From the NCBI RefSeq assembly GCF_056746865.1, contig NZ_CM163382.1: a DNA stretch of 64,000 nt. One strand, 5' to 3'. The number at the start of each line of letters is the position of its first letter. Within the stretch, counting starts at the first letter, position 1. The notes below the pieces were generated by a model, which made no database searches, was not told the origin of the DNA, and saw nothing but the letters and a program-made list of their open reading frames with translations. Below are positions 1 to 51,522 of the stretch, piece after piece. The translations under genes were made by a program, and so were the position numbers.

Positions 1-31
1 GCCCTGAAAGGCATGGTCATTCCGCATTGCA
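1..31 (-). other. Fragment homologous to an internal region of the beta-propeller paralogs; possible truncated fourth copy continuing left of the window
   Basis: 18-nt exact match (gaaaggcatggtcattcc, positions 7-24) to paralog B at about 3118-3135; minus-strand translation gives GMTMPF, a motif shared with paralogs B and C; the adjacent 32-119 is AT-rich non-coding. Confidence 0.3.
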
Positions 32-767: not shown

Positions 768-1673
768 CTATATTTCCAGACACCTGTTATCACTTAACCC
801 ATTACTGGCCCGCTGCCGTAGATATTCCCGTGGCGAGCGATAACCCAGTGCACTATGCGGATGCCATTCGTTATAATGCTCGAACGCCTCTGCAAGGTTC
901 TTTGCTGCCGTTAACCCGTCTGGTTTAGGCATGATACTGATGTAGTCACGCTTTATCGTTTTCACGAAGCTCTCTGCTATGCCGTTACTCTCCGGACTCC
1001 GCACCGCCGTGTTCTTCGGTTCAAGCCCCAACATCCGGGCAAACTGCCGTGTTTCATTAGCCCGGTAGCATGAACCATTATCCGTCAGCCACTCTACTGG
1101 AGACGCCGGAAGCTCGTTGCCGAAGCGGCGTTCCACCGCTCCCAGCATTACGTCCTGTACTGTTTCACTGTCGAAGCCGCCCGTAGTGACTGCCCAGTGC
1201 AGTGCCTCACGGTCACAGCAGTCCAGCGCGAACGTGACTCGCAGTTTTTCTCCGTTATCACAGCGGAACTCGAACCCGTCAGAGCACCATCGTTGATTGC
1301 TTTCTTTCACGGCCACTTTGCCAGTATGTGCCCGTTTCGATGGCGGTACAGCGGTTTTTCGCTCAAGCAACAGCGCATTCTGGCGCATGATCCGGTAAAC
1401 ACGTTTGGCATTGATCGCAGGCATACCATCAAGTTCGGCCTGTCTGCGAAGCAGCGCCCATACCCGACGATAACCATACGTGGGCAGCTCTCCGATAACA
1501 TGGTGTATACGGAGAAGCACATCCGTATCATCTGAGTGACGGCTGCGGCGACCATCTTTCCAGTCATCGGTTCGTCTGAGAATGACGTGCAACTGCGCAC
1601 GCGACACCCGGAGACAACGGCTGACTAAGCTTACTCCCCATCCCCGGGCAATAAGGGCGCGTGCGCTATCCAC
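768..1673 (-). CDS. insD: IS2 transposase OrfB (InsD)
   Basis: 301-aa ORF recognised as IS2 InsD (ends ...[31 protein letters not shown]); integrase catalytic core. Confidence 0.9.
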
Positions 1674-1996
1674 TTTTTTGCACGCCCGTATTCAACGGCT
1701 TCTTTAAGGAGTTCATTTTCCATCGTTTTTTTGCCGAGCAGGCGCTGGAGTTCTTTAATCTGCTTCATGGCAGCAGCAAGTTCAGAGGCAGGAACGACCT
1801 GCTCTCCTGCGGCCACAGCAGTAAGACTTCCCTCCTGGTATTGCTTGCGCCAGAGAAATAACTGGCTGGCTGCCACACCGTGTTGCCGGGCAACAAGGGA
1901 GACCGTCATTCCCGGTTCAAAACTCTGCTGAACAATAGCGATCTTTTCCTGTGTAGTACGCCGTCTGCGTTTCTCCGGTCCTAAGACATCAATCAT
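1631..1996 (-). CDS. insC: IS2 OrfA (InsC), helix-turn-helix protein
   Basis: ORF contains [56 protein letters not shown]; start placed at the internal Met matching the 121-aa InsC; overlaps insD as expected for a frameshift-fused transposase. Confidence 0.85.
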
Positions 1997-2497
1997 CTGC
2001 TCTCCAATGACTAGTCTAAAAACTAGTATTAAGACTATCACTTATTTAAGTGATATTGGTTGTCTGGAGATTCAGGGGGCCAGTCTAATCGACCACCAAT
2101 AGTCCGGGTATTGCTAATGGCAAATTCATATGGGATCGGTTCTTCAAGCCCTTCAAAACCACTACCTATAGCAAAAACCTCATTTTCCATTGTAACGCCC
2201 ACGTACTGACTGAATGGAATACTGGTTGTAGCCGAAAATATCTTGTCCATTCCTTCATAACCGCTGTATCCCCATTGCTCTCCTAATGGTTCATCAAAAA
2301 AAAAGGAAACAAAATTTTTTCTTGCCAGATGTTCTTCCATTACAGGGTCTATATCATCTCGCTTTTCTCGTGTAGTTATATAAATATAACCAGTGTCTCT
2401 TACTGCAACACCATTAATATAAAACCCTTTGAATATTTCATTGTACTCATCTTGAGTAATAATCATGTTTTTAATCTCATATTATTTTCATTTGTTT

Positions 2498-2812
2498 TTA
2501 CTGGAGTAAGAGTATGGACGGGATTGTTTTCCACCCATGCCCTTTCTGGAATCCCGGTGTCGCCGGAACATTCCCTTCACTGGTAGAGAAATACGAGCGA
2601 TCTTTCTGTGCCACCATCGACTTACAGATAAATACGGTAGCTGTTCCGTTCTGCAAATCCCGGGCATACGCCGTGTTGGAATAAGGCACAACGACCGGGC
2701 CTGTGGGCGGAGGAGGAGGGGACCAGCAGGGATCGGGAAATGCGCCAGCAGATTTCCCGTCAGACGCTCTGGAGCAGGCTTCCCGCCCGTTGATATAAAC
2801 GTTAGTTTCCAT
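2498..2812 (-). CDS. Hypothetical small ORF (104 aa, proline-rich) between paralog B and paralog A
   Basis: ORF ends 31 bp upstream of the paralog A start; its first codons (METNVY) lie in the conserved repeat downstream of B and C; the remainder is a GC-rich segment absent from the C-to-B spacer; coding status uncertain. Confidence 0.25.
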   Translation of the reverse strand: METNVYINGREACSRASDGKSAGAFPDPCWSPPPPPTGPVVVPYSNTAYARDLQNGTATVFICKSMVAQKDRSYFSTSEGNVPATPGFQKGHGWKTIPSILLLQ

Positions 2813-3365
2813 AATGTGCTATCCGTGTACCCACTTTCCTTTAAATTAACTGCTGGCCCGGGAGGCTATTCAAACGCCATTGAATCAAAGAGGACATTCC
2901 AGGCATTACCATCATAAATAGCAGCTCCTCTGGAGCCACAAACCATCATCACTGTCCCATCGGGGGAAACATCAATTCTTTTACTTAAAACGGCCACTTC
3001 AGGAGGGACGGGTTTATGTTTTGCATGCATGGCGAGCACCAGTTTGTCATCTTCCAGTACCCAGATGCCATAATCACTGGCACACCAGAGACGTCCATCA
3101 AACCATCCCATGTCGAGGAAAGGCATGGTCATTCCACCATGCGTAATTTGTGTCCATTGCTCATTGCGACCCTTCCATATAGCACCGTCAAAATCAGCAA
3201 TATAAACAAATCCGTCACCGGCACAGCAAACTGTGTACAGAAGTTTATTTGTCGGAAAAGGGAGTTTTTTCCATTGCTCACCATTAAAGTGATAAACGGT
3301 TCCCGTTCCACCCACTGCATACATATCTGACTCGGAAAAACCAGATAAATCCTGAAATAAGCTTC
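2796..3365. repeat. Direct repeat copy 1, about 570 bp: 3' half of paralog B plus about 70 bp of its 3' flank
   Basis: Near-identical to 3943..4512 (a handful of mismatches); repeat spacing 1147 bp. Confidence 0.85.
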
Positions 3366-3906
3366 TGGACATCGACTCAGCCTTCCGTTCCAGGAATCCA
3401 TCGGGAACAGGAATAGTTTGTGAAGCATCCAGCCAAACCTGATGATTAATTCGTTTATATATTCTTAACCCTCCCCCAATTGCATAGACACTTGTTCCTA
3501 CTCTGACTACCTTAATTATAGCTGTTCTCATGTCTGAGGATTTAGAAATAGGAATATCCAGATTATTTTCTCGTCCCTTGTATTCTCTGGTTTTGTAGCT
3601 TATGACTTCACAGTCGATATCAACTATAACTAATTCAGTTTGGGAAGGTGACCATCCAGCCGATATCGTTGGATAGCTCAAATTACCGAAAGACATCCCA
3701 AACACCCTGTTTTCAGGAGGGTTGTCAATAACTATTGATACCAGCTTGTGTTTAGGCATGTAATAGTCGTTGCCATATTCGATATGATTTTCATCAATTT
3801 TTTCAATTAATAATAAGCCAACGCGGCCATGTTCAAAGCCATATGTACAATCATATACTTCAAAATTTTTAAAGGTTTTATCCCAACGTTCTTGACTAAT
3901 AATCAT
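2866..3906 (-). CDS. Hypothetical protein, paralog B (346 aa) with beta-propeller-like repeats resembling BNR/Ycf48 or Kelch blades
   Basis: Intact 346-aa ORF; the C-terminal ~155-160 aa (from DLSGFSESDMYAVGG) are identical to paralog C, the N-terminal half about 60 percent identical; repeated blade-like motifs (YAIGGG...W, YAVGGTGTVYHFNGEQW, FDGAIWKGRNEQW, YDGNAW). Confidence 0.75.
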   Translation of the reverse strand: MIISQERWDKTFKNFEVYDCTYGFEHGRVGLLLIEKIDENHIEYGNDYYMPKHKLVSIVIDNPPENRVFGMSFGNLSYPTISAGWSPSQTELVIVDIDCEVISYKTREYKGRENNLDIPISKSSDMRTAIIKVVRVGTSVYAIGGGLRIYKRINHQVWLDASQTIPVPDGFLERKAESMSRSLFQDLSGFSESDMYAVGGTGTVYHFNGEQWKKLPFPTNKLLYTVCCAGDGFVYIADFDGAIWKGRNEQWTQITHGGMTMPFLDMGWFDGRLWCASDYGIWVLEDDKLVLAMHAKHKPVPPEVAVLSKRIDVSPDGTVMMVCGSRGAAIYDGNAWNVLFDSMAFE

Positions 3907-3942
3907 TTCATTTCCTTAGTTATCACAATTATCATCATAGCT

Positions 3943-4512
3943 ATCTATAAACGTTAGTTTCCATAATATGCTATCCGTGTGCCCACTTTCCTTTAAATTA
4001 ACTGCTGGCCCGGGAGGCTATTCAAACGCCATTGAATCAAAGAGGACATTCCAGGCATTACCATCATAAATAGCAGCTCCTCTGGAACCACAAACCATCA
4101 TCACGGTCCCATCGGGTGAAACATCAATTCTTTTACTTAAAACGGCCACTTCAGGAGGGACGGGTTTATGTTTTGCATGCATGGCAAGCACCAGTTTGTC
4201 ATCTTCCAGCACCCAGATGCCATAATCACTGGCACACCAGAGACGTCCATCAAACCATCCCATGTCGAGGAATGGCATGGTCATTCCACCATGCGTAATT
4301 TGTGTCCATTGTTCATTGCGACCCTTCCATATAGCACCGTCAAAATCAGCAATATAAACAAATCCGTCACCGGCACAGCAAACTGTGTACAGAAGTTTAT
4401 TTGTCGGAAAAGGGAGTTGTTTCCATTGCTCACCATTAAAGTGATAAACCGTTCCCGTTCCGCCCACTGCATACATATCCGATTCGGAAAAACCAGATAA
4501 ATCTCGGAATCG
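3943..4512. repeat. Direct repeat copy 2, about 570 bp: 3' half of paralog C plus its 3' flank
   Basis: Near-identical to 2796..3365. Confidence 0.85.
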
Positions 4513-5058
4513 ACTTCTGGTTATTGCTTCTACCTTCCTATCTAACAATCCATCGGGGACAGGCAGGTATGTAGAATGTTCCCGCCAAATTTGGTGATCA
4601 ACACGTTTGTATATTCTGAAACCACTACCGATAGCGTAAACACTGTTTTCAATTCGTACTACTTTTATTATAACGGAAAACATATCGATAGAACCTGGTA
4701 TGAGTATATTTATACTTTCTTCTACTCCTTTGTATACATCTTCTTTATAACTCATAACATCACGGTCCTGACTGACCATAACATATTCGGTCTGAGATGG
4801 GGGCCAACCAGAAGATATAGTCATCAGAGATATCCCTGTTGCGCGACGACCATATATGCGATATTTTTTGGAGAGGGTAAACGTAATGGAAATTAATCTC
4901 TTTTCAGGTGGGTAAAAAGGGTTTTCATATTCGGCATGCTCCTCATCTACCACTTCAATCAATGAAAGACCTACTTTTCCATGCTCGTAACCATAGGTGC
5001 AGTCATATATATAAAAGCCTTTGAGATATTTCTGATACGATTCTATATCTATGATCAT
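4018..5058 (-). CDS. Hypothetical protein, paralog C (346 aa) with beta-propeller-like repeats
   Basis: Intact 346-aa ORF; C-terminal half identical to paralog B, N-terminal half diverged; low GC. Confidence 0.75.
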   Translation of the reverse strand: MIIDIESYQKYLKGFYIYDCTYGYEHGKVGLSLIEVVDEEHAEYENPFYPPEKRLISITFTLSKKYRIYGRRATGISLMTISSGWPPSQTEYVMVSQDRDVMSYKEDVYKGVEESINILIPGSIDMFSVIIKVVRIENSVYAIGSGFRIYKRVDHQIWREHSTYLPVPDGLLDRKVEAITRSRFRDLSGFSESDMYAVGGTGTVYHFNGEQWKQLPFPTNKLLYTVCCAGDGFVYIADFDGAIWKGRNEQWTQITHGGMTMPFLDMGWFDGRLWCASDYGIWVLEDDKLVLAMHAKHKPVPPEVAVLSKRIDVSPDGTVMMVCGSRGAAIYDGNAWNVLFDSMAFE

Positions 5059-5083
5059 TTATCACCTCAAATATCTTCATCGT

Positions 5084-5383
5084 TTATAACACCCCCATCA
5101 CCTGCATTGATTTTTGCAGAGTTAAATCACCACAGGTATAAGCGTCTTGGTAAGCTTTATCCAGTTGCGCTTTCAAACAAGATTTATCACAACCGTACAT
5201 TAATGCAACCTCATCAATTACCATACATCTGGCATCTTTATAACTCATTTCTTTTCCAAAATGCTTTTCTTCTATTAGAGTGCCTGTAGCTGAGTGTAAT
5301 GCACCATGTGAACCAGTACGATTGTCTTTTCCTTCCAGACAAATTGTAGGCGCTTTGCCTTCGGTATATTCCCCCCCCAGCAC
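5084..5383 (-). CDS. Hypothetical small protein (99 aa), tightly coupled upstream of paralog C
   Basis: ORF ends 26 bp before the paralog C start; GTG start codon inferred; a run of 8 G on the coding strand sits at codons 3-5; no recognisable homology. Confidence 0.35.
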   Translation of the reverse strand: MLGGEYTEGKAPTICLEGKDNRTGSHGALHSATGTLIEEKHFGKEMSYKDARCMVIDEVALMYGCDKSCLKAQLDKAYQDAYTCGDLTLQKSMQVMGVL

Positions 5384-5751
5384 TTTCTTGTTGGATATTT
5401 GCTACGGGGCATTCTTTATATTAATTTTTCTTCCTTATGGAGTATCTCTGTTTGACACTTTAAAGTCTCTATGAGAATTATAAGATTTTTTTTAAAATAA
5501 TACGTTTTCAGATTTAGCAACAGGATTTTCACTCATACGATTAATATACGATATTTTAATCTCAAAAATATATTTGGCTGGTGAAGCTATCTGGGGTGTA
5601 TATTCACACCACATATATTATCAAAAGGCAGTTACGCTACCGCCATACCCTGATAAAACTCACCATCTGCACGAAACGGATTTTACGCTTTTTCTTCCGG
5701 CGAAATATCAAATTCTCAATTCAAATAATATCTATTGCGTTATATGACCTA

Positions 5752-7200
5752 TCACTCCCTCTCCGGCAGCACAATCACAAACCTTGTTCCTCGCGCATCT
5801 GACGTTACCGCAACTGTGCCTTTATGCGCGACAACAATCGATTTCACTATCGCCAGCCCAATGCCGCTACCTTCGCCTTTTCGCTGGCGGGAAGGATCAA
5901 CGCGGTAGAAACGGTCAAACAATCGCGGTAAGTGTTCGGGCGCAATGGGCGTACCGGGGTTTTCGACGGTAACTTGCACCTGATGATCGACCGCCTGGCA
6001 GCGTACTACAATAGCCTCTCCGGGTGGCGTATAACGCAGGGCATTAGAAAGCAGGTTGTTTAACGCCCGACGCAGCATCAGCGGATCGCCCGCAACCTGA
6101 CACTCGTCACCAACAAACCGCAACTCCACGCCGCGATCTTCCGCTAACGCCTCGAAAAAATCGAACACTTTGCCGACTTCATCCGCCAGGTTGAGCATTT
6201 TCTTTTCGGGGATTAACTGGTTGTTATCGGCCTGGGCGAGAAACAACATATCGCTGACCATTTTCGCCATTCGCGTCAGCTCTTCGAGATTAGAGTAGAG
6301 CACATCTTCCAGCTCCTTCTGGCTGCGTGACTGGCTGAGGGCGATTTCGGTTTGCGTTATGAGATTCGTAATTGGTGTACGAATTTCGTGAGCGATATCC
6401 GCTGAGAAATTGGACTGGCGAGTAAAGACATCCTCAATACGCTCGATCATATGGTTGAACGACAGTACCAGCTGTTCCAGCTCAATCGGCACGGTCTGCG
6501 GGTCAAGGCGAACGTCGAGATCTTTCGAGGTGATATTCTGGATTTGACGGCTGACGCTGCGGATCGGCGCGTGACCTTTATGTACCGCCAATAGCACGAT
6601 AAAGACGATCAGGATGCTGATGATCGATGCGGTCATAATAAGTTTATTCATCAAATCATTTATGTAATGAAGATGAAAATCGATCGAAAGCGCGATGTAG
6701 AGCGTATAAATCGGTTTGCCGTCCACCAACGGGCCAACCGGCAAGTTAATCATCCGCCAGTTGCTGTGTTCCATATGCCCGTGACCGTGGCCCGGCATCA
6801 TCATTGTCGGGCCGGAAAGGAGATACACCTCGCCGCCCCGCGCGTCTTTATCGGGTATGGCATCACGTGCAAACTCGCGGATATCGGGCGCACCGGGGGA
6901 GTGATATACCGTTTTACCGTGGCTATCTGCCAGGGAGATCAACACATTGGAATAACCACTGACAATATCTTCCAGCGTCATTAAGCGTCGGGCTTGCGTT
7001 TCGTCAGGGTGATTAAGTACCCGTTCAAGTGTGGCGCTAATTTCTTTTAAATCATTAATATCCTGCTCGGCAAAATGCACTTTTACCGAGTGGATCATTA
7101 TCCATGCAAAGGCGAAAAACGCCGCGATGGTGGCGAGGCTGATAAAAAAGGTCAGGCGGGTTGCCAGCGAAAACGGGCGCTGAAATGGCTTACTGACCAT
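5752..7200 (-). CDS. cusS: Copper/silver-sensing histidine kinase CusS
   Basis: Translation matches CusS ([16 protein letters not shown]...; periplasmic sensor, HAMP, HisKA and ATPase regions); start set at the internal Met of the 486-aa ORF. Confidence 0.92.
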
Positions 7201-7873
7201 CCGGCACCTCAAGCATGTAACCCACGCCGCGCACGGTTTGAATCAGCTTCGGCTCAAAGTCGTTGTCGATTTTGCCACGCAGCCGCTTCACCGCCACATC
7301 AATGGCGTTAGTGTCGCTGTCGAAATTCATGTCCCACACCTGCGAGGCGATAAGCGAGCGGGGCAGCACTTCGCCCTGATGGCGAAGGAAAAACTCCAGC
7401 AGAGTAAACTCTTTACTGGTCAGAGTGATGCGCGTACCGCTGCGGGTGACTTTGCGGCTGACGAGATCGACCATCAAATCGGCAACCTGAAACTGACTTT
7501 CGATAATCACCGCCGCCCCGCGCCGCAGTAATGTGCGCACCCGCGCCAGCAGTTCAGCAAAAGCGAATGGCTTCACCAGGTAGTCATCTGCCCCCAACTC
7601 CAGCCCCTTGACGCGATGTTCAATGGTGCCAAGCGCGGTAAGCAACAGAATCGGCATCCCTTTATTGGCGGAACGCAACATACGCACGATATCCCAGCCG
7701 TTCACGTCTGGCAGCATAATATCGAGGATTATCAGGTCATAATCACCGGTCATCGCCAGATGGTAGCCATTCAGCCCGTTGTCGGCCAAATCGACCACAA
7801 AACCGGCTTCGGTTAACCCTTTGGTCAAGTATTCTCCGGTTTTCTTTTCATCTTCGACAATCAACAGTTTCAT
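7190..7873 (-). CDS. cusR: Copper-responsive response regulator CusR (OmpR family)
   Basis: 227-aa [23 protein letters not shown]...; receiver plus winged-helix domains; overlaps the cusS start by 11 bp. Confidence 0.95.
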
Positions 7874-19684: not shown

Positions 19685-20019
19685 TTATGTTGGCGTTTTC
19701 TATTCAGTATAGAAGTCGGAGCGGCTGGGCGAGATGCGGAAGTTCTGGAATGCTTCTTTTTTTTGGTGATGGTGAACTGATTGTGACTGAAGAAGTTTGG
19801 CTACTTTTGCAATGTGACAAGTTATGGCAGAGCTGGCTGGTGGCGAAGAATTTTGACGATTGAGGCATGCAGAAAAATACGGGTTCAGCTTCAGTTGATC
19901 AAATGAGGAGTGAGAAGTCCGAAACAGGACTCACTGTATAAATAAACAGCTATTTTGCTGAAGAAGGGTAAGATAACGGCGGGTGCCTGAAGCTTTCCGG
20001 TTTCAGGTTTACTCTGAGG

Positions 20020-20085
20020 TCTGGAAAGATGAAGCCCCAGGACGATATTTCTATCAACCCTGGGGCTGCCACTCCAAACCCAAAC
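20020..20085 (-). ncRNA. sokE: Putative SokE antisense RNA region
   Basis: Placed by analogy with hok/sok loci, where Sok is antisense to the mok translation-initiation region; no promoter or terminator was resolved, so boundaries are approximate. Confidence 0.3.
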
Positions 20086-20217
20086 AATTTGGATGGTAGT
20101 CCCTTCTTCGCATGGAGGCAATATAAACATGCTGACGAAATATGCCCTTGTGGCTGTCATAGTGCTGTGTTTAACGGTGCTGGGATTTACGCTTCTGGTC
20201 GGAGACTCGCTGTGTGA
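20029..20217 (+). CDS. mokE: MokE, overlapping reading frame needed for hok translation
   Basis: 62-aa ORF starting ATGAAGCCCCAGG upstream of hokE and overlapping it in another frame, as is typical for mok. Confidence 0.55.
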
Positions 20218-20281
20218 GTTTACGGTGAAGGAACGTAATATTGAGTTTAAGGCTGTTCTCGCTTACGAACCGAAGAAGTAG
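20129..20281 (+). CDS. hokE: Hok-family toxin HokE (50 aa), copy 1
   Basis: [50 protein letters not shown], Hok/Gef family. Confidence 0.9.
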
Positions 20282-20302
20282 CCGTTGTGCGGGGAGTAAT
20301 CC

Positions 20303-21641
20303 CATAAGCGCTAACTTAAGGGTTGTGGTATTACGCCTGATATGATTTAACGTGCCGATGAATTACTCTCACGATAACTGGTCAGCAATTCTGGCCCATA
20401 TTGGTAAGCCCGAAGAACTGGATACTTCGGCACGTAATGCCGGGGCTCTAACCCGCCGCCGCGAAATTCGTGATGCTGCAACTCTGCTACGTCTGGGGCT
20501 GGCTTACGGCCCCGGGGGGATGTCATTACGTGAAGTCACTGCATGGGCTCAGCTCCATGACGTTGCAACATTATCTGACGTGGCTCTCCTGAAGCGGCTG
20601 CGGAATGCCGCCGACTGGTTTGGCATACTTGCCGCACAAACACTTGCTGTACGCGCCGCAGTTACGGGTTGTACAAGCGGAAAGAGATTGCGTCTTGTCG
20701 ATGGAACAGCAATCAGTGCGCCCGGGGGCGGCAGCGCTGAATGGCGACTACATATGGGATATGATCCTCATACCTGTCAGTTCACTGATTTTGAGCTAAC
20801 CGACAGCAGAGACGCTGAACGGCTGGACCGATTTGCGCAAACGGCAGACGAGATACGCATTGCTGACCGGGGATTCGGTTCGCGTCCCGAATGTATCCGC
20901 TCACTTGCTTTTGGAGAAGCTGATTATATCGTCCGGGTTCACTGGCGAGGATTGCGCTGGTTAACTGCAGAAGGAATGCGCTTTGACATGATGGGTTTTC
21001 TGCGCGGGCTGGATTGCGGTAAGAACGGTGAAACCACTGTAATGATAGGCAATTCAGGTAATAAAAAAGCCGGAGCTCCTTTTCCGGCACGTCTCATTGC
21101 CGTATCACTTCCTCCCGAAAAAGCATTAATCAGTAAAACCCGACTGCTCAGCGAGAATCGTCGAAAAGGACGAGTAGTTCAGGCGGAAACGCTGGAAGCA
21201 GCGGGCCATGTGCTATTGCTAACATCATTACCGGAAGATGAATATTCAGCAGAGCAAGTGGCTGATTGTTACCGTCTGCGATGGCAAATTGAACTGGCTT
21301 TTAAGCGGCTCAAAAGTTTGCTGCACCTGGATGCTTTGCGTGCAAAGGAACCTGAACTCGCGAAAGCGTGGATATTTGCTAATCTACTCGCCGCATTTTT
21401 AATTGACGACATAATCCAGCCATCGCTGGATTTCCCCCCCAGAAGTGCCGGATCCGAAAAGAAGAACTAACTCGTTGTGGAGAATAACAAAAATGGTCAT
21501 CTGGAGCTTACAGGTGGCCATTCGTGGGACAGTATCCCTGACAGCCTACAAAACGCAATTGAAGAACGCGAGGCATCGTCTTAACGAGGCACCGAGGCGT
21601 CGCATTCTTCAGATGGTTCAACCCTTAAGTTAGCGCTTATG
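20303..21641 (+). mobile_element. IS186 insertion sequence with a 10-bp target site duplication (ggagtaatcc)
   Basis: Terminal inverted repeats cataagcgctaacttaagggttg (20303-) and caacccttaagttagcgcttatg (-21641); flanked by ggagtaatcc at 20293-20302 and 21642-21651; target is the GC-rich palindrome gcggggagtaatccccgc. Confidence 0.9.
20352..21470 (+). CDS. insL: IS186 (IS4-family) transposase
   Basis: 372-aa ORF MPMNYSHDNWSAILAHIGKPEELDTSARNAGALTRRREIRDAATLLRLGLAYGPGGMSLREV... Confidence 0.93.
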   Translation: MPMNYSHDNWSAILAHIGKPEELDTSARNAGALTRRREIRDAATLLRLGLAYGPGGMSLREVTAWAQLHDVATLSDVALLKRLRNAADWFGILAAQTLAVRAAVTGCTSGKRLRLVDGTAISAPGGGSAEWRLHMGYDPHTCQFTDFELTDSRDAERLDRFAQTADEIRIADRGFGSRPECIRSLAFGEADYIVRVHWRGLRWLTAEGMRFDMMGFLRGLDCGKNGETTVMIGNSGNKKAGAPFPARLIAVSLPPEKALISKTRLLSENRRKGRVVQAETLEAAGHVLLLTSLPEDEYSAEQVADCYRLRWQIELAFKRLKSLLHLDALRAKEPELAKAWIFANLLAAFLIDDIIQPSLDFPPRSAGSEKKN

Positions 21642-21765
21642 GGAGTAATCCCCGCATATCCGGTTGTCAGGTCAGGGTGGTAAGGCACCTGCTTTACACT
21701 TTCGCCCGCGGTCAGCAATGGCTGCGGGCGATTTCGTTTTACGAACAATAACGAGCGTTGCCAAC

Positions 21766-22235
21766 AGAAGTCCGAAACAGGACTCGCTGTATAAATAAAC
21801 AGCTATTTTGATAAGGAAGGGTAAGATAACGGCGGGTGCCTGAAGCTTTCCGGTTTCAGGTTTACTCTGAGGTCTGGAAAGATGAAGCCCCAGGAGATAT
21901 TTCTATCAACCCTGGGGCTGCCACTCCAAACCAGACAATTTGGATGGTAGTCCCTTCTTCGCATGGAGGCAATATAAACATGCTGACGAAATATGCCCTT
22001 GTGGCAGTCATAGTGCTGTGTTTAACGGTGCTGGGATTTACGCTTCTGGTCGGAGACTCGCTGTGTGAGTTTACGGTGAAGGAACGTAATATTGAGTTTA
22101 AGGCTGTTCTCGCTTACGAACCGAAGAAGTAGCCGTTGTGCGGGGAGTAATCCCCGCATATCCGGTTGTCAGGTCAGGGTGGTAAGGCACCTGCTTTACA
22201 CTTTCGCCCGCGGTCAGTGATGGCTGCGGGCGAAT
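21766..22235. repeat. hokE locus repeat unit, copy 2 (complete unit between IS186 and entD)
   Basis: Matches copy 1 (19913..20302 plus 21642..21765) apart from a few substitutions and two 1-nt deletions in the mok region; contains an intact copy of the IS186 target palindrome at about 22139-22156. Confidence 0.85.
21980..22132 (+). CDS. hokE: Hok-family toxin HokE, copy 2 (50-aa frame intact; upstream mok frame altered)
   Basis: Identical Hok peptide; in this copy two 1-nt deletions truncate mok to about 22 codons and open an upstream-extended ORF (21836..22132) in the hok frame. Confidence 0.75.
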
Positions 22236-22874: not shown

Positions 22875-23048
22875 ATCGACTATATTCGAGACTGATGACA
22901 AACGCAAAACTGCCTGATGCGCTACGCTTATCAGGCCTACATGGTCCTGCAATATATTGAATTGGCAAGATTTTTGTAGGCCGGATAAGGCGTTCACGCC
23001 GCATCCGGCATGAACGACGCGCACTTTGTCAACAATCTGACGTTAGCA

Positions 23049-25531: not shown

Positions 25532-26734
25532 GTGACGGCGTTAAAAGTAGGAAGTGAGAGCTGGTGGCAGTCGAAACATGGCCCGGAATGGCAGCGTCTG
25601 AATGACGAAATGTTTGAGGTCACTTTCTGGTGGCGTGATCCCCAAGGTTCTGAAGAATACTCGACGATAAAGCGGGTATGGGTCTACGTCACTGGTGTGA
25701 CCGATCACCATCAGAACAGCCAGCCCCAGTCGATGCAGCGAATTGCAGGCACCAACGTCTGGCAGTGGACGACACAACTCAATGCCAACTGGCGCGGCAG
25801 CTACTGTTTTATTCCCACCGAACGCGATGACATTTTTTCTGCACCATCCCCCGATCGCCTCGAATTACGTGAAGGCTGGCGAAAACTATTACCCCAGGCG
25901 ATAGCCGATCCGCTGAATCCACAAAGCTGGAAAGGCGGGCGAGGGCACGCTGTTTCTGCACTCGAAATGCCGCAAGCGCCTCTGCAACCGGGATGGGATT
26001 GTCCGCAAGCGCCAGAAATACCTGTCAAAGAAATTATCTGGAAAAGTGAACAGTTGAAAAATTCACGCCGTGTATGGATTTTTACCACCGGCGATGCAAC
26101 AGCAGAAGAACGCCCGCTGGCAGTTTTGCTTGATGGCGAATTTTGGGCGCAGAGTATGCCCGTCTGGCCTGCGCTGACTTCGCTGACCCATCGTCGGCAA
26201 CTTCCTCCCGCCGTGTATGTGTTGATCGACGCTATCGACACCACGCACCGCGCTCACGAACTGCCGTGTAATGCGGATTTCTGGCTGGCAGTACAGCAAG
26301 AGTTATTACCCCTGGTGAAAGCTATTGCCCCTTTTAGCGATCGCGCCGATCGCACCGTGGTCGCCGGGCAGAGTTTTGGTGGGCTTTCCGCGCTGTATGC
26401 CGGACTGCACTGGCCTGAACGTTTTGGCTGTGTATTAAGCCAGTCAGGATCGTACTGGTGGCCGCATCGGGGCGGGCAGCAAGAAGGTGTTTTACTTGAG
26501 CAACTTAAAGCTGGTGAAGTTAGCGCCGAAGGTCTGCGCATTGTGCTGGAAGCGGGTATTCGCGAGCCGATGATCATGCGGGCCAATCAGGCGCTGTATG
26601 CGCAATTACACCCTATAAAAGAATCCATTTTCTGGCGTCAGGTTGACGGCGGACATGATGCGCTTTGTTGGCGCGGTGGCTTGATGCAGGGGCTAATCGA
26701 CCTCTGGCAACCACTTTTCCATGACAGGAGTTGA
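25532..26734 (+). CDS. fes: Enterochelin esterase Fes
   Basis: 400-aa ORF from a GTG start, MTALKVGSESWWQSKHGPEWQRLNDEMFEVTFWWRDPQGSEEYSTIKRVWVY... Confidence 0.93.
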   Translation: MTALKVGSESWWQSKHGPEWQRLNDEMFEVTFWWRDPQGSEEYSTIKRVWVYVTGVTDHHQNSQPQSMQRIAGTNVWQWTTQLNANWRGSYCFIPTERDDIFSAPSPDRLELREGWRKLLPQAIADPLNPQSWKGGRGHAVSALEMPQAPLQPGWDCPQAPEIPVKEIIWKSEQLKNSRRVWIFTTGDATAEERPLAVLLDGEFWAQSMPVWPALTSLTHRRQLPPAVYVLIDAIDTTHRAHELPCNADFWLAVQQELLPLVKAIAPFSDRADRTVVAGQSFGGLSALYAGLHWPERFGCVLSQSGSYWWPHRGGQQEGVLLEQLKAGEVSAEGLRIVLEAGIREPMIMRANQALYAQLHPIKESIFWRQVDGGHDALCWRGGLMQGLIDLWQPLFHDRS

Positions 26735-26736
26735 AT

Positions 26737-26955
26737 ATGGCATTCAGTAATCCCTTCGATGATCCGCAGGGAGCGTTTTACATTTTGCGCAATGCGCAGG
26801 GGCAATTCAGTCTGTGGCCGCAACAATGCGCCTTACCGGCAGGCTGGGACGTTGTGTGTCAGCCGCAGTCACAGGCGTCCTGCCAGCAGTGGCTGGAAGC
26901 CCACTGGCGTACTCTGACACCGTCGAATTTCACCCAGTTGCAGGAGGCGCAATGA
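26737..26955 (+). CDS. ybdZ: MbtH-like protein YbdZ
   Basis: MAFSNPFDDPQGAFYILRNAQGQFSLWPQQCALPAGWDVVCQPQSQASCQQWLEAHWRTLTPSNFTQLQEAQ; overlaps the fes stop and the entF start. Confidence 0.9.
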   Translation: MAFSNPFDDPQGAFYILRNAQGQFSLWPQQCALPAGWDVVCQPQSQASCQQWLEAHWRTLTPSNFTQLQEAQ

Positions 26956-29900
26956 GCCAGCATTTACCTTTGGTCGCCGCACAGCCCGGCATCTGGATGG
27001 CAGAAAAACTGTCAGATTTACCCTCCGCCTGGAGCGTGGCGCATTACGTTGAGTTAACCGGAGAGGTTGATGCGCCATTACTGGCCCGCGCGGTGGTTGC
27101 CGGATTAGCGCAAGCAGATACGCTGCGGATGCGTTTTACGGAAGATAACGGCGAAGTCTGGCAGTGGGTCGATGATGCGCTGACGTTCGAACTGCCAGAA
27201 ATTATCGACCTGCGAACCAACATTGATCCGCACGGTACTGCGCGGGCATTAATGCAGGCGGATTTGCAACAAGATCTGCGCGTCGATAGCGGTAAACCAC
27301 TGGTCTTTCATCAGTTGATACAGGTGGCGGATAACCGCTGGTACTGGTATCAGCGTTATCACCATTTGCTGGTCGATGGCTTCAGTTTCCCGGCCATTAC
27401 ACGCCAGATCGCCAATATTTACTGCGCATTGCTGCGTGGCGAACCAACGCCTGCTTCGCCGTTTACGTCTTTCGCTGATGTAGTGGAAGAGTATCAGCAG
27501 TACCGCGAAAGTGAAGCCTGGCAGCGTGATGCGGCATTCTGGGCGGAACAGCGTCGTCAACTGCCACCGCCCGCGTCACTTTCTCCGGCACCTTTACCGG
27601 GGCGCAGCGCTTCGGCAGATATTTTGCGCCTGAAACTGGAATTTACCGACGGGGAATTCCGCCAGCTGGCTATGCAACTTTCAGGTGTGCAGCGTACCGA
27701 TTTAGCCCTTGCGCTGGCGGCTTTGTGGCTGGGGCGATTGTGCAATCGCATGGACTACGCCGCCGGATTTATCTTTATGCGTCGACTGGGCTCGGCGGCG
27801 CTGACGGCTACCGGACCCGTGCTCAACGTTTTGCCGTTGGGGATTCACATTGCGGCACAAGAAACGCTGCCGGAACTGGCAACCCGACTGGCAGCACAAC
27901 TGAAAAAAATGCGTCGTCATCAACGTTACGATGCCGAACAAATTGTCCGTGACAGCGGGCGAGCGGCAGGAGAGGAACCGCTGTTCGGTCCGGTACTCAA
28001 TATCAAGGTATTTGATTACCAACTGGATATTCATGGTGTTCAGACGCAAACCCATACCCTGGCAACCGGTCCGGTTAATGACCTTGAACTGGCCCTGTTC
28101 CCAGATGAACACGGTGATTTGAGTATTGAGATCCTCGCCAATAAACAGCGTTACGATGAGCCAACGTTAATTCAACACGCTGAACGCCTGAAAATGCTGA
28201 TTGCCCAGTTCGCCGCGGATCCGGCGCTGTTGTGCGGCGATGTCGATATTATGCTGCCAGGTGAATATGCGCAGCTGGCGCAGATCAACGCCACTCAGGT
28301 TGAGATTCCAGAAACCACGCTGAGCGCGCTAGTGGCAGAACAAGCGGCAAAAACACCGGATGCTCCGGCGCTGGTTGATGCGCGTTACCAGTTTAGCTAT
28401 CGGGAAATGCGCGAACAGGTGGTGGCGCTGGCGAATCTGCTGCGTGAGCGCGGCGTTAAACCAGGCGACAGCGTGGCGGTGGCGCTACCGCGCTCGGTCT
28501 TTTTGACCCTGGCGCTGCATGCAATTGTTGAAGCAGGCGCGGCCTGGCTACCGCTGGATACCGGCTATCCGGACGATCGTCTGAAGATGATGCTGGAAGA
28601 TGCGCGCCCGTCGCTGTTAATCACCACCGACGATCAACTGCCGCGCTTTGCCGATGTTCCAGATTTAACCAGCCTTTGCTATAACGCCCCGCTTAAACCG
28701 CAGGGCAGTGCGCCGCTGCAACTTTCACAACCGCACCACACGGCTTATATCATCTTTACCTCCGGTTCCACCGGCAGACCGAAAGGGGTAATGGTCGGGC
28801 AGACGGCTATCGTCAACCGCCTGTTGTGGATGCAAAACCATTACCCGCTTACAGGCGAAGATGTCGTTGCCCAAAAAACGCCGTGCAGTTTTGATGTCTC
28901 GGTGTGGGAGTTTTTCTGGCCGTTTATTGCCGGGGCGAAACTGGTGATGGCTGAACCGGAAGCGCACCGCGACCCGCTCGCTATGCAGCAATTCTTTGCC
29001 GAATATGGCGTAACGACCACGCACTTTGTGCCCTCTATGCTGGCGGCATTTGTTGCTTCGCTGACGCCGGAAACTGCTCGCCAGAGTTGCGCGACCTTGA
29101 AACAGGTTTTTTGTAGCGGTGAAGCCTTACCGGCCGATTTATGCCGCGAATGGCAACAGTTAACCGGCGTGCCGTTGCATAATCTATATGGCCCGACGGA
29201 AGCGGCGGTAGATGTCAGCTGGTATCCGGCTTTTGGCGAGGAACTGGCACAGGTGCGCGGTAGCAGCGTGCCGATTGGTTATCCAGTGTGGAATACGGGC
29301 CTGCGTATTCTTGATGCGATGTTGCATCCGGTGCCGCCGGGTGTGGCAGGCGATCTCTATCTCACCGGCATCCAACTGGCGCAAGGGTATCTGGGACGAC
29401 CCGATCTGACCGCCAGCCGCTTTATTGCCGATCCTTTTACCCCAGGTGAACGCATGTACCGTACCGGAGATGTTGCCCGCTGGCTGGAAAACGGCGCGGT
29501 GGAGTATCTCGGGCGTAGTGACGATCAGCTAAAAATTCGTGGTCAGCGAATTGAACTGGGCGAAATCGATCGCGTGATGCAGGCGCTGCCGGATGTCGAG
29601 CAAGCTGTTACCCACGCTTGTGTGATTAATCAGGCGACAGCCACCGGGGGGGATGCGCGTCAGCTGGTGGGCTATCTGGTGTCGCAATCAGGTCTGCCGT
29701 TGGATACCAGCGCATTGCAGGCGCAACTGCGCGAAACATTGCCGCCGCATATGGTACCCGTCGTTCTGCTGCAACTTCCACAGTTACCTCTTAGCGCCAA
29801 CGGCAAGCTGGATCGCAAAGCCTTACCGTTGCCTGAACTGAAAGCACAAGCGCCGGGGCGTGCGCCGAAAGCGGGCAGTGAAACGATTATCGCCGCGGCA

Positions 29901-30833
29901 TTCTCGTCGTTGCTGGGTTGTGACGTGCAGGATGCCGATGCTGATTTCTTTGCGCTTGGCGGTCATTCGCTACTGGCAATGAAACTGGCTGCGCAGTTAA
30001 GTCGGCAGTTTGCCCGTCAGGTGACGCCGGGGCAGGTGATGGTCGCGTCAACTGTCGCCAAACTGGCAACGATTATTGATGGTGAAGAAGACAGCTCCCG
30101 GCGCATGGGATTCGAAACCATTCTGCCGTTGCGTGAAGGTAATGGCCCGACGCTGTTTTGTTTCCATCCTGCGTCCGGTTTTGCCTGGCAGTTCAGCGTG
30201 CTCTCGCGTTATCTCGATCCACAATGGTCGATTATCGGCATTCAGTCGCCGCGCCCTCATGGCCCCATGCAGACCGCGGCAAACCTGGATGAAGTCTGCG
30301 AAGCGCATCTGGCAACGTTACTTGAACAACAACCGCACGGCCCTTATTACCTGCTGGGGTATTCGCTGGGCGGTACGCTGGCGCAGGGCATAGCGGCGCG
30401 ACTGCGTACCCGTGGTGAACAGGTGGCATTTCTTGGCTTGCTGGATACCTGGCCGCCAGAAACGCAAAACTGGCAGAAAAAAGAGGCTAATGGTCTGGAC
30501 CCGGAAGTACTGGCGGAGATTAACCGCGAGCGCGAGGCCTTCCTGGCGGCACAGCAGGGAAGTACTTCAACGGAGTTGTTTACCACCATTGAAGGCAACT
30601 ACGCTGATGCTGTGCGCCTGCTGACGACTGCTCATAGTGTACCGTTTGACGGTAAAGCGACGCTGTTTGTTGCTGAACGCACGCTTCAGGAAGGTATGAA
30701 TCCCGAACGCGCCTGGTCGCCGTGGATTGCGGAGCTGGATATCTATCGTCAGGATTGTGCGCATGTGGATATTATCTCTCCGGTGGCGTTTGAAAAAATT
30801 GGGCCGATTATTCGTGCGACGCTAAATAAGTAA
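26952..30833 (+). CDS. entF: Enterobactin synthase component F (NRPS: C-A-PCP-TE, serine-activating)
   Basis: Translation from MSQHLPLVAAQPGIWMAEKLSDLPSAWSVAHYVELTGEVDAPLLARAV... matches EntF; contains the adenylation core FTSGSTGRPKGV, the PCP motif FFALGGHSL and the thioesterase GYSLGG. Confidence 0.95.
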   Translation: MSQHLPLVAAQPGIWMAEKLSDLPSAWSVAHYVELTGEVDAPLLARAVVAGLAQADTLRMRFTEDNGEVWQWVDDALTFELPEIIDLRTNIDPHGTARALMQADLQQDLRVDSGKPLVFHQLIQVADNRWYWYQRYHHLLVDGFSFPAITRQIANIYCALLRGEPTPASPFTSFADVVEEYQQYRESEAWQRDAAFWAEQRRQLPPPASLSPAPLPGRSASADILRLKLEFTDGEFRQLAMQLSGVQRTDLALALAALWLGRLCNRMDYAAGFIFMRRLGSAALTATGPVLNVLPLGIHIAAQETLPELATRLAAQLKKMRRHQRYDAEQIVRDSGRAAGEEPLFGPVLNIKVFDYQLDIHGVQTQTHTLATGPVNDLELALFPDEHGDLSIEILANKQRYDEPTLIQHAERLKMLIAQFAADPALLCGDVDIMLPGEYAQLAQINATQVEIPETTLSALVAEQAAKTPDAPALVDARYQFSYREMREQVVALANLLRERGVKPGDSVAVALPRSVFLTLALHAIVEAGAAWLPLDTGYPDDRLKMMLEDARPSLLITTDDQLPRFADVPDLTSLCYNAPLKPQGSAPLQLSQPHHTAYIIFTSGSTGRPKGVMVGQTAIVNRLLWMQNHYPLTGEDVVAQKTPCSFDVSVWEFFWPFIAGAKLVMAEPEAHRDPLAMQQFFAEYGVTTTHFVPSMLAAFVASLTPETARQSCATLKQVFCSGEALPADLCREWQQLTGVPLHNLYGPTEAAVDVSWYPAFGEELAQVRGSSVPIGYPVWNTGLRILDAMLHPVPPGVAGDLYLTGIQLAQGYLGRPDLTASRFIADPFTPGERMYRTGDVARWLENGAVEYLGRSDDQLKIRGQRIELGEIDRVMQALPDVEQAVTHACVINQATATGGDARQLVGYLVSQSGLPLDTSALQAQLRETLPPHMVPVVLLQLPQLPLSANGKLDRKALPLPELKAQAPGRAPKAGSETIIAAAFSSLLGCDVQDADADFFALGGHSLLAMKLAAQLSRQFARQVTPGQVMVASTVAKLATIIDGEEDSSRRMGFETILPLREGNGPTLFCFHPASGFAWQFSVLSRYLDPQWSIIGIQSPRPHGPMQTAANLDEVCEAHLATLLEQQPHGPYYLLGYSLGGTLAQGIAARLRTRGEQVAFLGLLDTWPPETQNWQKKEANGLDPEVLAEINREREAFLAAQQGSTSTELFTTIEGNYADAVRLLTTAHSVPFDGKATLFVAERTLQEGMNPERAWSPWIAELDIYRQDCAHVDIISPVAFEKIGPIIRATLNK

Positions 30834-30848
30834 ATTTATATTATCTAT

Positions 30849-30890
30849 AAACCCATAATTACAGAAAATAATTATGGGTTTATCATTTGT
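30849..30890 (+). terminator. Putative rho-independent terminator after entF
   Basis: Perfect 13-bp inverted repeat aaacccataatta / taattatgggttt with a 7-nt loop, followed by a T-rich stretch. Confidence 0.6.
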
Positions 30891-31048: not shown

Positions 31049-32167
31049 ATGTCATCACTGAATATTAAACAGGGAAGTGACACTCATTTTCCCGAGTATC
31101 CTCTGGCGTCGCCCAGTAATAATGAAATTGATTTACTTAATCTAATCGAAGTTTTATGGCGGGCCAAAAAAACGGTCATGGCGGTCGTTTTTGCGTTTGC
31201 CTGCACAGGATTGCTGATCTCTTTCATCCTGCCGCAAAAATGGACCAGCGCGGCGGTTGTCACGCCTCCAGAACCTGTTCAGTGGCAGGCGCTTGAGAAA
31301 ACATTCACTAAGCTTCGTGTGCTGGATCTGGATATCAAAATTGATCGTACAGAAGCATTTAACCTGTTTATCAAGAAGTTTCAGTCGGTTAGCTTGCTGG
31401 AAGAGTACCTGCGCTCAACACCTTATGTGATGGACCAATTAAAAGAGGCGAAAATCGACGAGCTGGATTTGCATCGCGCAATTGTCGCATTGAGCGAAAA
31501 AATGAAAGCGGTTGATGACAATGCCAGTAAGAAAAAAGATGAACCGTCACTGTATAACTCCTGGACGCTAAGTTTTACCGCGCCAACCAGTGAAGAGGCG
31601 CAGACCGTTTTGAGCGGGTATATCGATTATATCTCTGCGTTGGTGGTGAAAGAGTCGATAGAAAACGTCCGTAATAAACTGGAGATCAAAACCCAGTTTG
31701 AAAAAGAAAAACTGGCTCAGGACCGCATTAAAACGAAAAATCAACTTGATGCAAACATTCAGCGCCTCAATTATTCACTCGACATTGCTAACGCGGCAGG
31801 AATTAAAAAGCCCGTTTACAGTAATGGTCAGGCCGTTAAAGATGACCCCGATTTCTCTATTTCTCTCGGCGCAGACGGTATTGAACGCAAACTGGAAATT
31901 GAAAAAGCGGTTACTGACGTTGCGGAACTGAACGGTGAATTACGTAATCGTCAGTATCTTGTTGAGCAGTTAACAAAAGCAAATATCAACGATGTGAATT
32001 TTACGCCGTTTAAATATCAGTTAAGCCCGTCATTGCCAGTGAAAAAAGACGGTCCGGGTAAGGCGATTATTGTGATCCTTTCTGCGATGATCGGCGGGAT
32101 GGTGGCTTGTGGTGGCGTGCTGTTGCGCCATGCGATGGCATCCAGAAAACAGGATGCCGTGATGTAA
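31049..32167 (+). CDS. fepE: FepE, polysaccharide co-polymerase (Wzz-like chain-length regulator)
   Basis: Translation from the internal Met, MSSLNIKQGSDTHFPEYPLASPSNNEIDLLNLIEVLWRAKKTVMAVVFAFACTGLLISFILPQKW... Confidence 0.9.
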   Translation: MSSLNIKQGSDTHFPEYPLASPSNNEIDLLNLIEVLWRAKKTVMAVVFAFACTGLLISFILPQKWTSAAVVTPPEPVQWQALEKTFTKLRVLDLDIKIDRTEAFNLFIKKFQSVSLLEEYLRSTPYVMDQLKEAKIDELDLHRAIVALSEKMKAVDDNASKKKDEPSLYNSWTLSFTAPTSEEAQTVLSGYIDYISALVVKESIENVRNKLEIKTQFEKEKLAQDRIKTKNQLDANIQRLNYSLDIANAAGIKKPVYSNGQAVKDDPDFSISLGADGIERKLEIEKAVTDVAELNGELRNRQYLVEQLTKANINDVNFTPFKYQLSPSLPVKKDGPGKAIIVILSAMIGGMVACGGVLLRHAMASRKQDAVM

Positions 32168-51151: not shown

Positions 51152-51522
51152 TAATTTGTCCTTTTCAGTCAGTGCAAAAGTCGGGTAAAAGGCATAACCT
51201 ATCACTGTCATAGGTAAGAGCTTAGATCAGGTGATTGCCCTTTGTTTATGAGGGTGTTGTAATCCATGTCGTTGTTGCATTTGTAAGGGCAACACCTCAG
51301 CCTGCAGGCAGGCGCTGAAGATACCAAAGGGTAGTTCAGATTACACGGTCACCTGGAAAGGGGGCCATTTTACTTTTTATCGCCGCTGGCGGTGCAAAGT
51401 TCACAAAGTTGTCTTACGAAGGTTGTAAGGTAAAACTTATCGATTTGATAATGGAAACGCATTAGCCGAATCGGCAAAAATTGGTTACCTTACATCTCAT
51501 CGAAAACACGGAGGAAGTATAG

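What the first reader, a model, noticed from the sequence alone, without database searches (positions are those of the whole stretch)
26731..26955. ybdZ overlaps both the fes stop and the entF start
The 72-aa MbtH-like ORF begins within the fes stop codon (ATGA) and its stop overlaps the entF start by 4 bp. This compact arrangement is consistent with translational coupling of the NRPS with its MbtH-like partner.
Basis: seen in the sequence. Interest (0 to 1): 0.2.

Follow-up and report, generated by a model that had tools for sequence, protein, structure and literature searches.

The report
Known fes–ybdZ–entF operon gene junctions
This is the well-known E. coli enterobactin operon, where the small helper gene ybdZ ends in a 4-base ATGA overlap with the start of the synthetase gene entF; that layout is ordinary, and the claimed overlap with the upstream gene fes is a misreading.

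Summary
The window from about 21.6 kb onward is essentially identical to E. coli chromosomes. The region is the annotated fes–ybdZ–entF(–fepE) enterobactin operon.

The ybdZ stop (TGA, 26953-26955) does overlap the entF start (ATG, 26952-26954) as ATGA, with a strong Shine-Dalgarno (SD) ribosome-binding motif, AGGAGG, 4 nt upstream. The first junction is misdescribed:
- The 72-aa ybdZ starts at ATG 26737, 2 nt after the fes stop (TGA, 26732-26734).
- Position 26731 is an in-frame TTG (sequence TTGA, not ATGA) that would give 74 aa.
- That TTG has no usable SD spacing. It occurs in only 8 of 40 Enterobacteriaceae loci, whereas the ATG and its GGAG are in 40 of 40.

ATGA overlaps are commonplace: 4 of 25 co-directional gene junctions in this window have one. 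Across 40 species, ybdZ and entF are always within 10 nt, but the geometry varies (−4, −8, +1, +9/+10).

Translational coupling by termination–reinitiation is plausible. It fits the 1:1 YbdZ:EntF complex, but it is untested here. The strong SD and the lack of an occluding RNA structure suggest entF can also initiate independently.

Already known; low interest.

The parts
25532..26734 (+). fes (enterochelin esterase), 400 aa, GTG start, TGA stop at 26732-26734
   Evidence: ORF and translation. Pfam Enterochelin_N 143 bits plus Esterase 75.7 bits. RefSeq annotation of a 100%-identical strain.
26726..26730 (+). Shine-Dalgarno AGGAG for ybdZ. It lies in the last sense codons of fes (Arg-Ser), 6 nt upstream of ATG 26737.
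   Evidence: Read directly from the sequence. GGAG at the same offset in 40 of 40 Enterobacteriaceae loci; anti-SD duplex energies −5.8 to −8.4 kcal/mol.
26731..26733 (+). In-frame TTG overlapping the fes stop (TTGA).
   Evidence: It abuts the SD with 0-nt spacing. It is present in only 8 of 40 loci (Escherichia and 2 Citrobacter). It is not the annotated start. The crystallised YbdZ begins at MAFS after a two-residue extension that I take to be a tag remnant.
26737..26955 (+). ybdZ, 72-aa MbtH-like protein, ATG start, TGA stop
   Evidence: Translation. PF03621 77.1 bits against a cut-off of 27. PDB 5JA1 chain B, E = 7e-47. RefSeq and K-12 annotation.
26942..26947 (+). Shine-Dalgarno AGGAGG for entF. 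It lies inside the ybdZ 3' end (codons Gln-Glu-Ala), 4 nt upstream of the entF ATG.
   Evidence: Sequence. Duplex energy −10.3 kcal/mol.
26952..26955 (+). ATGA: the entF start ATG (26952-26954) overlapping the ybdZ stop TGA (26953-26955)
   Evidence: Same in K-12. A −4 overlap in 24 of 40 related loci.
26952..30833 (+). entF, 1293-aa NRPS termination module (C-A-PCP-TE)
   Evidence: Translation. Pfam Condensation, AMP-binding, PP-binding and Thioesterase. RefSeq annotation.

Best explanation
These are the two internal cistron junctions of the Fur-regulated E. coli fes–ybdZ–entF(–fepE) enterobactin operon.

Anatomy:
- ybdZ encodes the 72-aa MbtH-like partner of the EntF adenylation domain.
- It starts at ATG 26737, 2 nt after the fes stop. 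Its SD (AGGAG) is embedded in the last fes codons.
- It ends in TGA 26953-26955, which overlaps the entF ATG (ATGA). The entF SD (AGGAGG) is embedded in the ybdZ tail.

Proposed mechanism (inferred, not shown): all three genes are read from one polycistronic mRNA. A ribosome terminating at the fes or ybdZ stop sits directly on the next initiation site and can reinitiate there (termination–reinitiation). Free 30S subunits can also load at the strong, largely unstructured SD sites. The expected result is partial rather than obligatory translational coupling. That would help keep YbdZ synthesis at or above EntF synthesis for their 1:1 complex.

The gene identities, coordinates and junction geometry are shown here. 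The coupling is inference.
For: Identity and coordinates:
- 100% identity to E. coli chromosomes; 5413 of 5426 complete genomes carry the segment.
- RefSeq and K-12 annotate fes 25532-26734, ybdZ 26737-26955 and entF 26952-30833.
- Pfam assignments and PDB 5JA1_B agree.

Start codon: the ATG and GGAG are conserved in 40 of 40 loci, the TTG in 8 of 40.

Linkage: gene order is ybdZ then entF, with a junction of 10 nt or less, in 40 of 40 species. 31 of 40 overlap (−4 in 24, −8 in 7).

Single transcript: no promoter-like site on the + strand between 26000 and 27000. The literature treats fes-ybdZ-entF-fepE as one Fur-regulated unit (PMC8910356).

Coupling precedent: 4 of 5 native E. coli ATGA pairs were strictly coupled, and a 10-nt-gap pair in Haloferax volcanii was also coupled (PMC6728339).

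Rationale: 1:1 MLP:A-domain stoichiometry, and YbdZ is needed for enterobactin production (PMC7593251). An EntF–YbdZ co-crystal exists (PMC10510592).
Against: - No experiment or expression data specific to this junction could be retrieved. The primary papers were not held. The two supplementary data sets searched had no ybdZ entries.
- The entF initiation region has a strong SD. In the −99..+30 minimum-free-energy fold the SD and AUG are mostly unpaired. The 66-101-nt junction segments fold less stably than shuffled controls (z = +1.6 to +1.8 in three of four segments, 0.0 in the fourth). The opening energy of 7.6 kcal/mol is unremarkable, rank 24 of 36 genes in the window.
- By the criterion of PMC6728339 this resembles bioBF, which initiated de novo without coupling.
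- Junction geometry varies among relatives, so ATGA itself is not required.
- YbdZ function can be provided by other MLPs in a ΔybdZ strain, and EntF is made in soluble form without YbdZ. Cis-coupling is therefore not essential for function.
Confidence: 0.7

Rival explanations
1. Neutral operon compaction. The ATGA overlap and the 2-nt gap are by-products of mutational drift at cistron boundaries. Each gene is translated independently from its own SD, and there is no functionally significant coupling.
For: - ATGA is the commonest overlap type and is frequent in this very window, 4 of 25 co-directional pairs (PMC6728339).
- Geometry drifts among species: −4, −8, +1, +9/+10 for ybdZ/entF, and 2 to 30 nt for fes/ybdZ.
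- Every locus keeps some SD-like match before entF, though it is weak in some, and Escherichia has a strong one.
- The initiation regions are not occluded, like the uncoupled bioBF pair.
- ybdZ loss can be complemented by other MLPs.
Against: - Linkage of 10 nt or less with fixed gene order holds in 40 of 40 species. That is tighter than neutrality alone would predict, though purifying selection on operon integrity could also explain it.
- Leclercia and Silvania loci keep ATGA with only a weak SD (−3.8 kcal/mol). This suggests reinitiation contributes there.
- 4 of 5 tested E. coli ATGA pairs were coupled.
Confidence: 0.3
2. ybdZ initiates at 26731 within the fes stop (a 4-nt overlap), so ybdZ is physically overlapped, and coupled, at both ends.
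For: A TTG at 26731 is in frame and overlaps the fes TGA as TTGA. TTG is a permitted bacterial start codon.
Against: - The motif is TTGA, not ATGA, and the product would be 74 aa, not 72.
- The SD AGGAG ends at 26730, so the spacing to the TTG is 0 nt, against 6 nt to the ATG.
- The TTG is absent in 32 of 40 related loci, while the ATG and SD are invariant.
- In non-Escherichia relatives fes ends 10-30 nt upstream.
- RefSeq and K-12 annotate the ATG.
- The crystallised YbdZ starts at MAFS.
Confidence: 0.03

Closest known systems
E. coli K-12 fes–ybdZ–entF–fepE operon (b0585, b4511, b0586, b0587)
   Same: Same genes, same order and same junction geometry: a 2-nt gap, then a 4-nt ATGA overlap. 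Across the 276 nt spanning both junctions there are only 6 differences from K-12. One of them falls in the spacer between the entF SD and ATG (GGCGCAATGA versus GGCACAATGA); the start codons, stop codons and SD motifs are unchanged.
   Different: Nothing of substance. YbdZ differs from the K-12/5JA1 protein at 3 residues (V→A, I→V, T→S).
ATGA-type overlapping gene pairs coupled by termination–reinitiation (Huber et al. 2019, PMC6728339: hyfHI, astDB, ydbH/ynbE, menDH)
   Same: Co-directional pair, 4-nt AUGA overlap, SD inside the 3' end of the upstream gene.
   Different: Coupling is untested for ybdZ/entF. The coupled examples had a stable predicted structure at the initiation region, whereas the entF region is largely open, like the uncoupled bioBF pair.
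MbtH-like domains fused to NRPS adenylation domains (SlgN1, PDB 4GR4/4GR5; ObiF1, PDB 6N8E)
   Same: The MLP is made in fixed 1:1 ratio and in cis with its A domain. In SlgN1 the MLP is N-terminal, matching the ybdZ→entF gene order.
   Different: Here the two are separate polypeptides in different reading frames. Any 1:1 ratio would have to come from translation, not from covalent fusion.

Membership tests
MbtH-like protein (Pfam PF03621) | Profile match above the curated threshold | tested here: met
   77.1 bits against a cut-off of 27, E = 6.8e-22, profile positions 2-52 of 53.
MbtH-like protein (Pfam PF03621) | Small (about 70 aa) stand-alone protein encoded next to an NRPS with an adenylation domain | tested here: met
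   72 aa, immediately upstream of entF, which has the C-A-PCP-TE architecture.
MbtH-like protein (Pfam PF03621) | Physical and functional partnership with the A domain | not testable with these tools
   Supported only by near-identity to the YbdZ chain co-crystallised with EntF (5JA1_B, E = 7e-47) and by the literature.
E. coli fes–ybdZ–entF operon | Orthologous sequence and synteny (fepA divergent; fes, ybdZ, entF, fepE co-directional) | tested here: met
   100% identity to several E. coli chromosomes. Present in 5413 of 5426 complete genomes. Annotation matches.
Stop/start-overlapping gene pair (ATGA class) | Stop codon and downstream start codon share nucleotides | tested here: met
   ybdZ/entF: ATGA at 26952-26955.
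Stop/start-overlapping gene pair (ATGA class) | The same feature for the fes/ybdZ junction | tested here: not met
   There is a 2-nt gap with the conserved, annotated ATG start. Only the unconserved TTG at 26731 overlaps, as TTGA.
Translationally coupled pair (termination–reinitiation) | SD motif in the 3' end of the upstream gene | tested here: met
   AGGAG at 26726-26730 and AGGAGG at 26942-26947.
Translationally coupled pair (termination–reinitiation) | Local structure that suppresses de novo initiation at the downstream gene (proposed for E. coli in PMC6728339) | tested here: inconclusive
   SD and AUG are mostly unpaired in the −99..+30 minimum-free-energy fold. Three of the four junction segments fold less stably than shuffles, z = +1.6 to +1.8. 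Opening energies of 7.6 (entF) and 6.2 (ybdZ) kcal/mol lie mid-range for the window's genes.
Translationally coupled pair (termination–reinitiation) | Downstream translation depends on upstream translation reaching the junction | not testable with these tools
   Needs reporter or ribosome-profiling experiments. No such data were retrievable.

The most novel reading that the evidence does not exclude
ybdZ precedes entF, with a junction of 10 nt or less, in all 40 Enterobacteriaceae species sampled. This invariant order could be selected not merely for stoichiometry but for cis, co-translational assembly. Newly finished YbdZ would be released next to the same mRNA. It could then capture the EntF adenylation domain as that domain emerges from the coupled ribosome. 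On this reading, chromosomally cis-encoded YbdZ would outperform the same amount supplied in trans.
Probability: 0.12. Interest if true: 0.4.

Novelty: already known. Interest (0 to 1): 0.07.

Why it matters
It matters little beyond correct annotation. The gene arrangement is already in every E. coli annotation, and ATGA overlaps are a routine operon feature.

Two modest points come out of it:
- Mechanical ORF callers extend ybdZ to an upstream TTG. That creates a spurious overlap with fes.
- The ybdZ–entF pair would be a convenient natural test of whether translational coupling sets the ratio of an MbtH-like protein to its NRPS. Relatives offer −4, −8, +1 and +10 junction geometries and both strong and weak SDs. 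The answer is of practical interest for heterologous NRPS expression.

Tried and rejected
1. TTG 26731 as the real ybdZ start. Rejected on SD spacing, conservation (8 of 40 loci), annotation and the crystallised protein.
2. A hairpin sequestering the entF or ybdZ initiation region, which would indicate structure-mediated coupling. None was found. The junction segments fold no better, and mostly worse, than shuffled controls, and opening energies are mid-range.
3. An internal promoter in front of ybdZ or entF. There is no consensus-like + strand site between 26000 and 27000, though the scan is crude.
4. A structured RNA element at the junctions. The nearest Rfam match at gathering threshold lies about 3.8 kb away, at 22933-22974.
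5. Expression data for a Fes:YbdZ:EntF ratio. The proteome supplements list entF but not ybdZ. The ribosome-profiling supplements had no hits. PMC4006352, which I recalled as a ribosome-profiling paper, was not held.
6. Primary papers on fes/entF 'coupled expression' (Pettis & McIntosh 1987) and on YbdZ biochemistry (Felnagle 2010; Schomer 2017 and 2018). None is held in the library. Only their titles and secondary summaries could be used.
7. Exact conservation of ATGA as evidence of selection. Rejected because the geometry varies across species.

Full report
**What is in the sequence**

Reading 26600-27100 directly gives ...CAT GAC AGG AGT TGA at the end of the fes frame. The fes stop is TGA 26732-26734. 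It is followed by A-T and then ATG GCA TTC AGT..., with the ATG at 26737-26739.

The mechanical ORF list reports 26731..26955 as a 74-aa ORF starting at TTG. Its translation is L-N-M-A-F-S....

The 72-aa ORF is the one starting at ATG 26737, and it does not overlap fes: there is a 2-nt gap.

At the other end the sequence is ...CAG GAG GCG CAA TGA. The ATG at 26952-26954 is staggered one base before the TGA at 26953-26955. This is a genuine ATGA 4-nt overlap with the entF start, whose product begins MSQHLPLVAAQPGIWMAEKL.

**Identity**

- The 2-kb segment around the finding is 100% identical to several E. coli chromosomes and is present in 5413-5414 of 5426 complete E. coli genomes.
- From about 21.64 kb to 64 kb the window differs from strain 118UI at a single position. 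That strain's RefSeq annotation therefore transfers directly: fes 25532-26734, ybdZ 26737-26955, entF 26952-30833, fepE 31049-32167.
- K-12 MG1655 has the same geometry: fes, a 2-nt gap, ybdZ, a 4-nt overlap, entF. Across the 276 nt spanning both junctions it differs at 6 positions. One lies in the spacer between the entF SD and ATG; the start codons, stop codons and SD motifs are unchanged.
- Pfam confirms MbtH (PF03621, 77.1 bits) for the 72-aa protein. It confirms Enterochelin_N plus Esterase for Fes, and Condensation, AMP-binding, PP-binding and Thioesterase for EntF.
- The 72-aa protein matches PDB 5JA1 chain B (YbdZ co-crystallised with EntF) at E = 7e-47 with three substitutions. That chain begins xH-MAFS, so the construct starts at the ATG-encoded Met after a two-residue extension that I take to be a tag remnant.

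**Which start codon?**

The SD AGGAG (26726-26730) abuts the TTG with 0-nt spacing but lies 6 nt before the ATG.

I fetched loci encoding YbdZ relatives from one genome per species and analysed 39 usable loci plus the window:
- The ATG and a GGAG at the same offset are present in 40 of 40.
- A TTG at −6 is present in only 8 (six Escherichia, including the window, and two Citrobacter).
- Outside Escherichia, fes ends 10-30 nt before ybdZ.

The TTG/TGA coincidence is therefore an Escherichia-specific accident, not the ybdZ start.

**Is the ATGA overlap special?**

No. Among the 25 co-directional adjacent gene pairs annotated in window 22-64 kb, four are ATGA −4 overlaps: ybdZ/entF, fepD/fepG, fepG/fepC and citD/citE. 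One is a −1 overlap (entB/entA), and entA/entH has the same 2-nt gap as fes/ybdZ.

Huber et al. (PMC6728339) report that about 15% of co-directional pairs overlap in most prokaryotic groups. They call the 4-nt overlap the most common type.

**Conservation of the junction**

Gene order fes-ybdZ-entF holds in all 40 loci. The ybdZ/entF junction is:

| Junction geometry | Loci |
|---|---|
| −4 (ATGA, once GTGA) | 24 |
| −8 (ATGAnTGA/TAA) | 7 |
| +1 | 1 |
| +9/+10 (stop codon forms part of the SD, TAAGGAG…ATG) | 8 |

Tight juxtaposition of 10 nt or less is universal, but the particular ATGA geometry is not. SD strength also varies. It is −10.3 kcal/mol in Escherichia, but only −3.8 kcal/mol in the Leclercia and Silvania loci that retain ATGA. 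In those loci reinitiation would be expected to matter more.

**Mechanism**

The arrangement is the textbook substrate for termination–reinitiation coupling. Huber et al. showed strict coupling for 4 of 5 native E. coli ATGA pairs using −99..+30 fragments. They attributed the exception (bioBF) to the absence of RNA structure at the initiation region, which allows de novo initiation.

I applied the same in-silico criterion:
- In the −99..+30 minimum-free-energy fold around the entF start, the SD and AUG are essentially unpaired.
- Three of the four 66-101-nt segments spanning the junctions fold less stably than dinucleotide shuffles (z = +1.6 to +1.8). The fourth is no different from shuffles (z = 0.0).
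- The energy to open −15..+5 is 7.6 kcal/mol for entF and 6.2 kcal/mol for ybdZ. These rank 24th and 15th of 36 genes in the window, which is unremarkable.

Together with the strong SDs, this predicts that both genes can initiate independently and that any coupling is partial. This is inference; nothing here measures translation.

No promoter-like site lies on the + strand in 26000-27000, and no Rfam family matches near the junctions. Both are consistent with simple polycistronic expression. The literature treats the unit as a Fur-regulated fes-ybdZ-entF-fepE operon (PMC8910356).

**Why coupling would make sense, and why it is not required**

MbtH-like proteins act at 1:1 stoichiometry with adenylation domains. 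YbdZ is required for enterobactin production and enhances EntF solubility and activity. However, EntF is made in soluble form without YbdZ, and non-cognate MLPs can substitute for YbdZ in a ΔybdZ strain (PMC7593251, summarising Felnagle 2010 and Schomer & Thomas 2017). EntF–YbdZ structures exist (PMC10510592).

Some NRPSs carry the MLP as a fused domain. In SlgN1 (4GR4/4GR5) it is N-terminal; in ObiF1 (6N8E) it is C-terminal. This shows that obligate cis 1:1 production is a viable solution.

[quoted passage not shown] Its existence is confirmed from reference lists, but its text is not held, so I cannot say what kind of coupling it showed.

**Comparison with what is known, and verdict**

This is the known E. 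coli operon with its known gene boundaries. The only corrections to the finding are:
- The first junction is a 2-nt gap (TGAatATG), not an ATGA overlap.
- 26731 is a spurious TTG start.
- The ATGA overlap with entF is real but ordinary.

Translational coupling is a reasonable but untested inference, and probably partial. Novelty: already known. Interest: low.

**Limitations**

- The species sample was retrieved with peptide patterns derived from the query. It covers only fairly close Enterobacteriaceae; Salmonella and Klebsiella, for example, were not returned.
- entF start codons in relatives were assigned by homology to the PLVAAQ motif plus best SD, not from annotation.
- RNA folds are thermodynamic predictions of isolated fragments.

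Noticed in passing
window 19981-22132: There are two copies of the hokE/sok type I toxin–antitoxin locus. The Rfam sok matches are at 19981-20137 and 21834-21988. The hokE CDSs are at about 20129-20281 and 21980-22132. They flank an IS4-family (IS421/IS186-like) transposase gene at about 20358-21470. Strain 118UI has the two hokE copies without the IS, so the window carries about 1.35 kb extra here.
   Followed up: partly
window 30847-30883: A 15-pair, AT-rich inverted repeat (ATAAACCCATAATTA…TAATTATGGGTTTAT) starts 14 nt after the entF stop. It is conserved in K-12, where a longer T-run follows it. It is probably an intrinsic terminator or attenuator between entF and fepE, which would fit the weaker co-regulation of fepE reported in RNA-seq.
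   Followed up: partly
L047 (E. coli Br_178_kylling) 4023-7431; corresponds to window ~26909-27596: One of 5413 E. coli genomes has a deletion of about 690 bp. It removes the ybdZ 3' end, the ATGA junction and the first ~215 codons of entF. This leaves out-of-frame ybdZ' and 'entF pseudogenes, a natural loss of the junction and presumably of enterobactin synthesis.
   Followed up: partly
window ~1-5400: Upstream of cusS there is a cluster annotated in matching strains as an HNH/EndoVII-fold toxin-2 domain protein, two WD40/BNR-repeat proteins, a PAAR-like protein and ISAs1-family transposase remnants. It looks like an orphan polymorphic-toxin (Rhs/PAAR-type) island, and its IS content varies between strains.
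   Followed up: no
window 55183-55291 (− strand); 51285-51378 (+); 22933-22974 (−): Rfam matches above gathering threshold: the rnk leader (124.9 bits), STnc70 sRNA upstream of ahpC (44.1 bits), and ES036/CssrF sRNA between entD and fepA (40.5 bits).
   Followed up: no
L012, L015, L016, L018, L043 (Silvania, Leclercia), ybdZ/entF junction: These relatives keep the ATGA overlap but have only a weak SD-like motif (caGGTGaa, −3.8 kcal/mol) before entF. In Escherichia the value is −10.3. They would be the best natural candidates for obligatory termination–reinitiation coupling.
   Followed up: partly
L009 (223-bp contig labelled Lactobacillus johnsonii ATCC 33200); L029 (contig labelled Chryseobacterium sp. 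18061): ybdZ-encoding contigs of clearly enterobacterial type sit in assemblies labelled as unrelated genera. L009 is 94% identical over residues 8-72. This is most likely contamination or mislabelling in the public assemblies.
   Followed up: no
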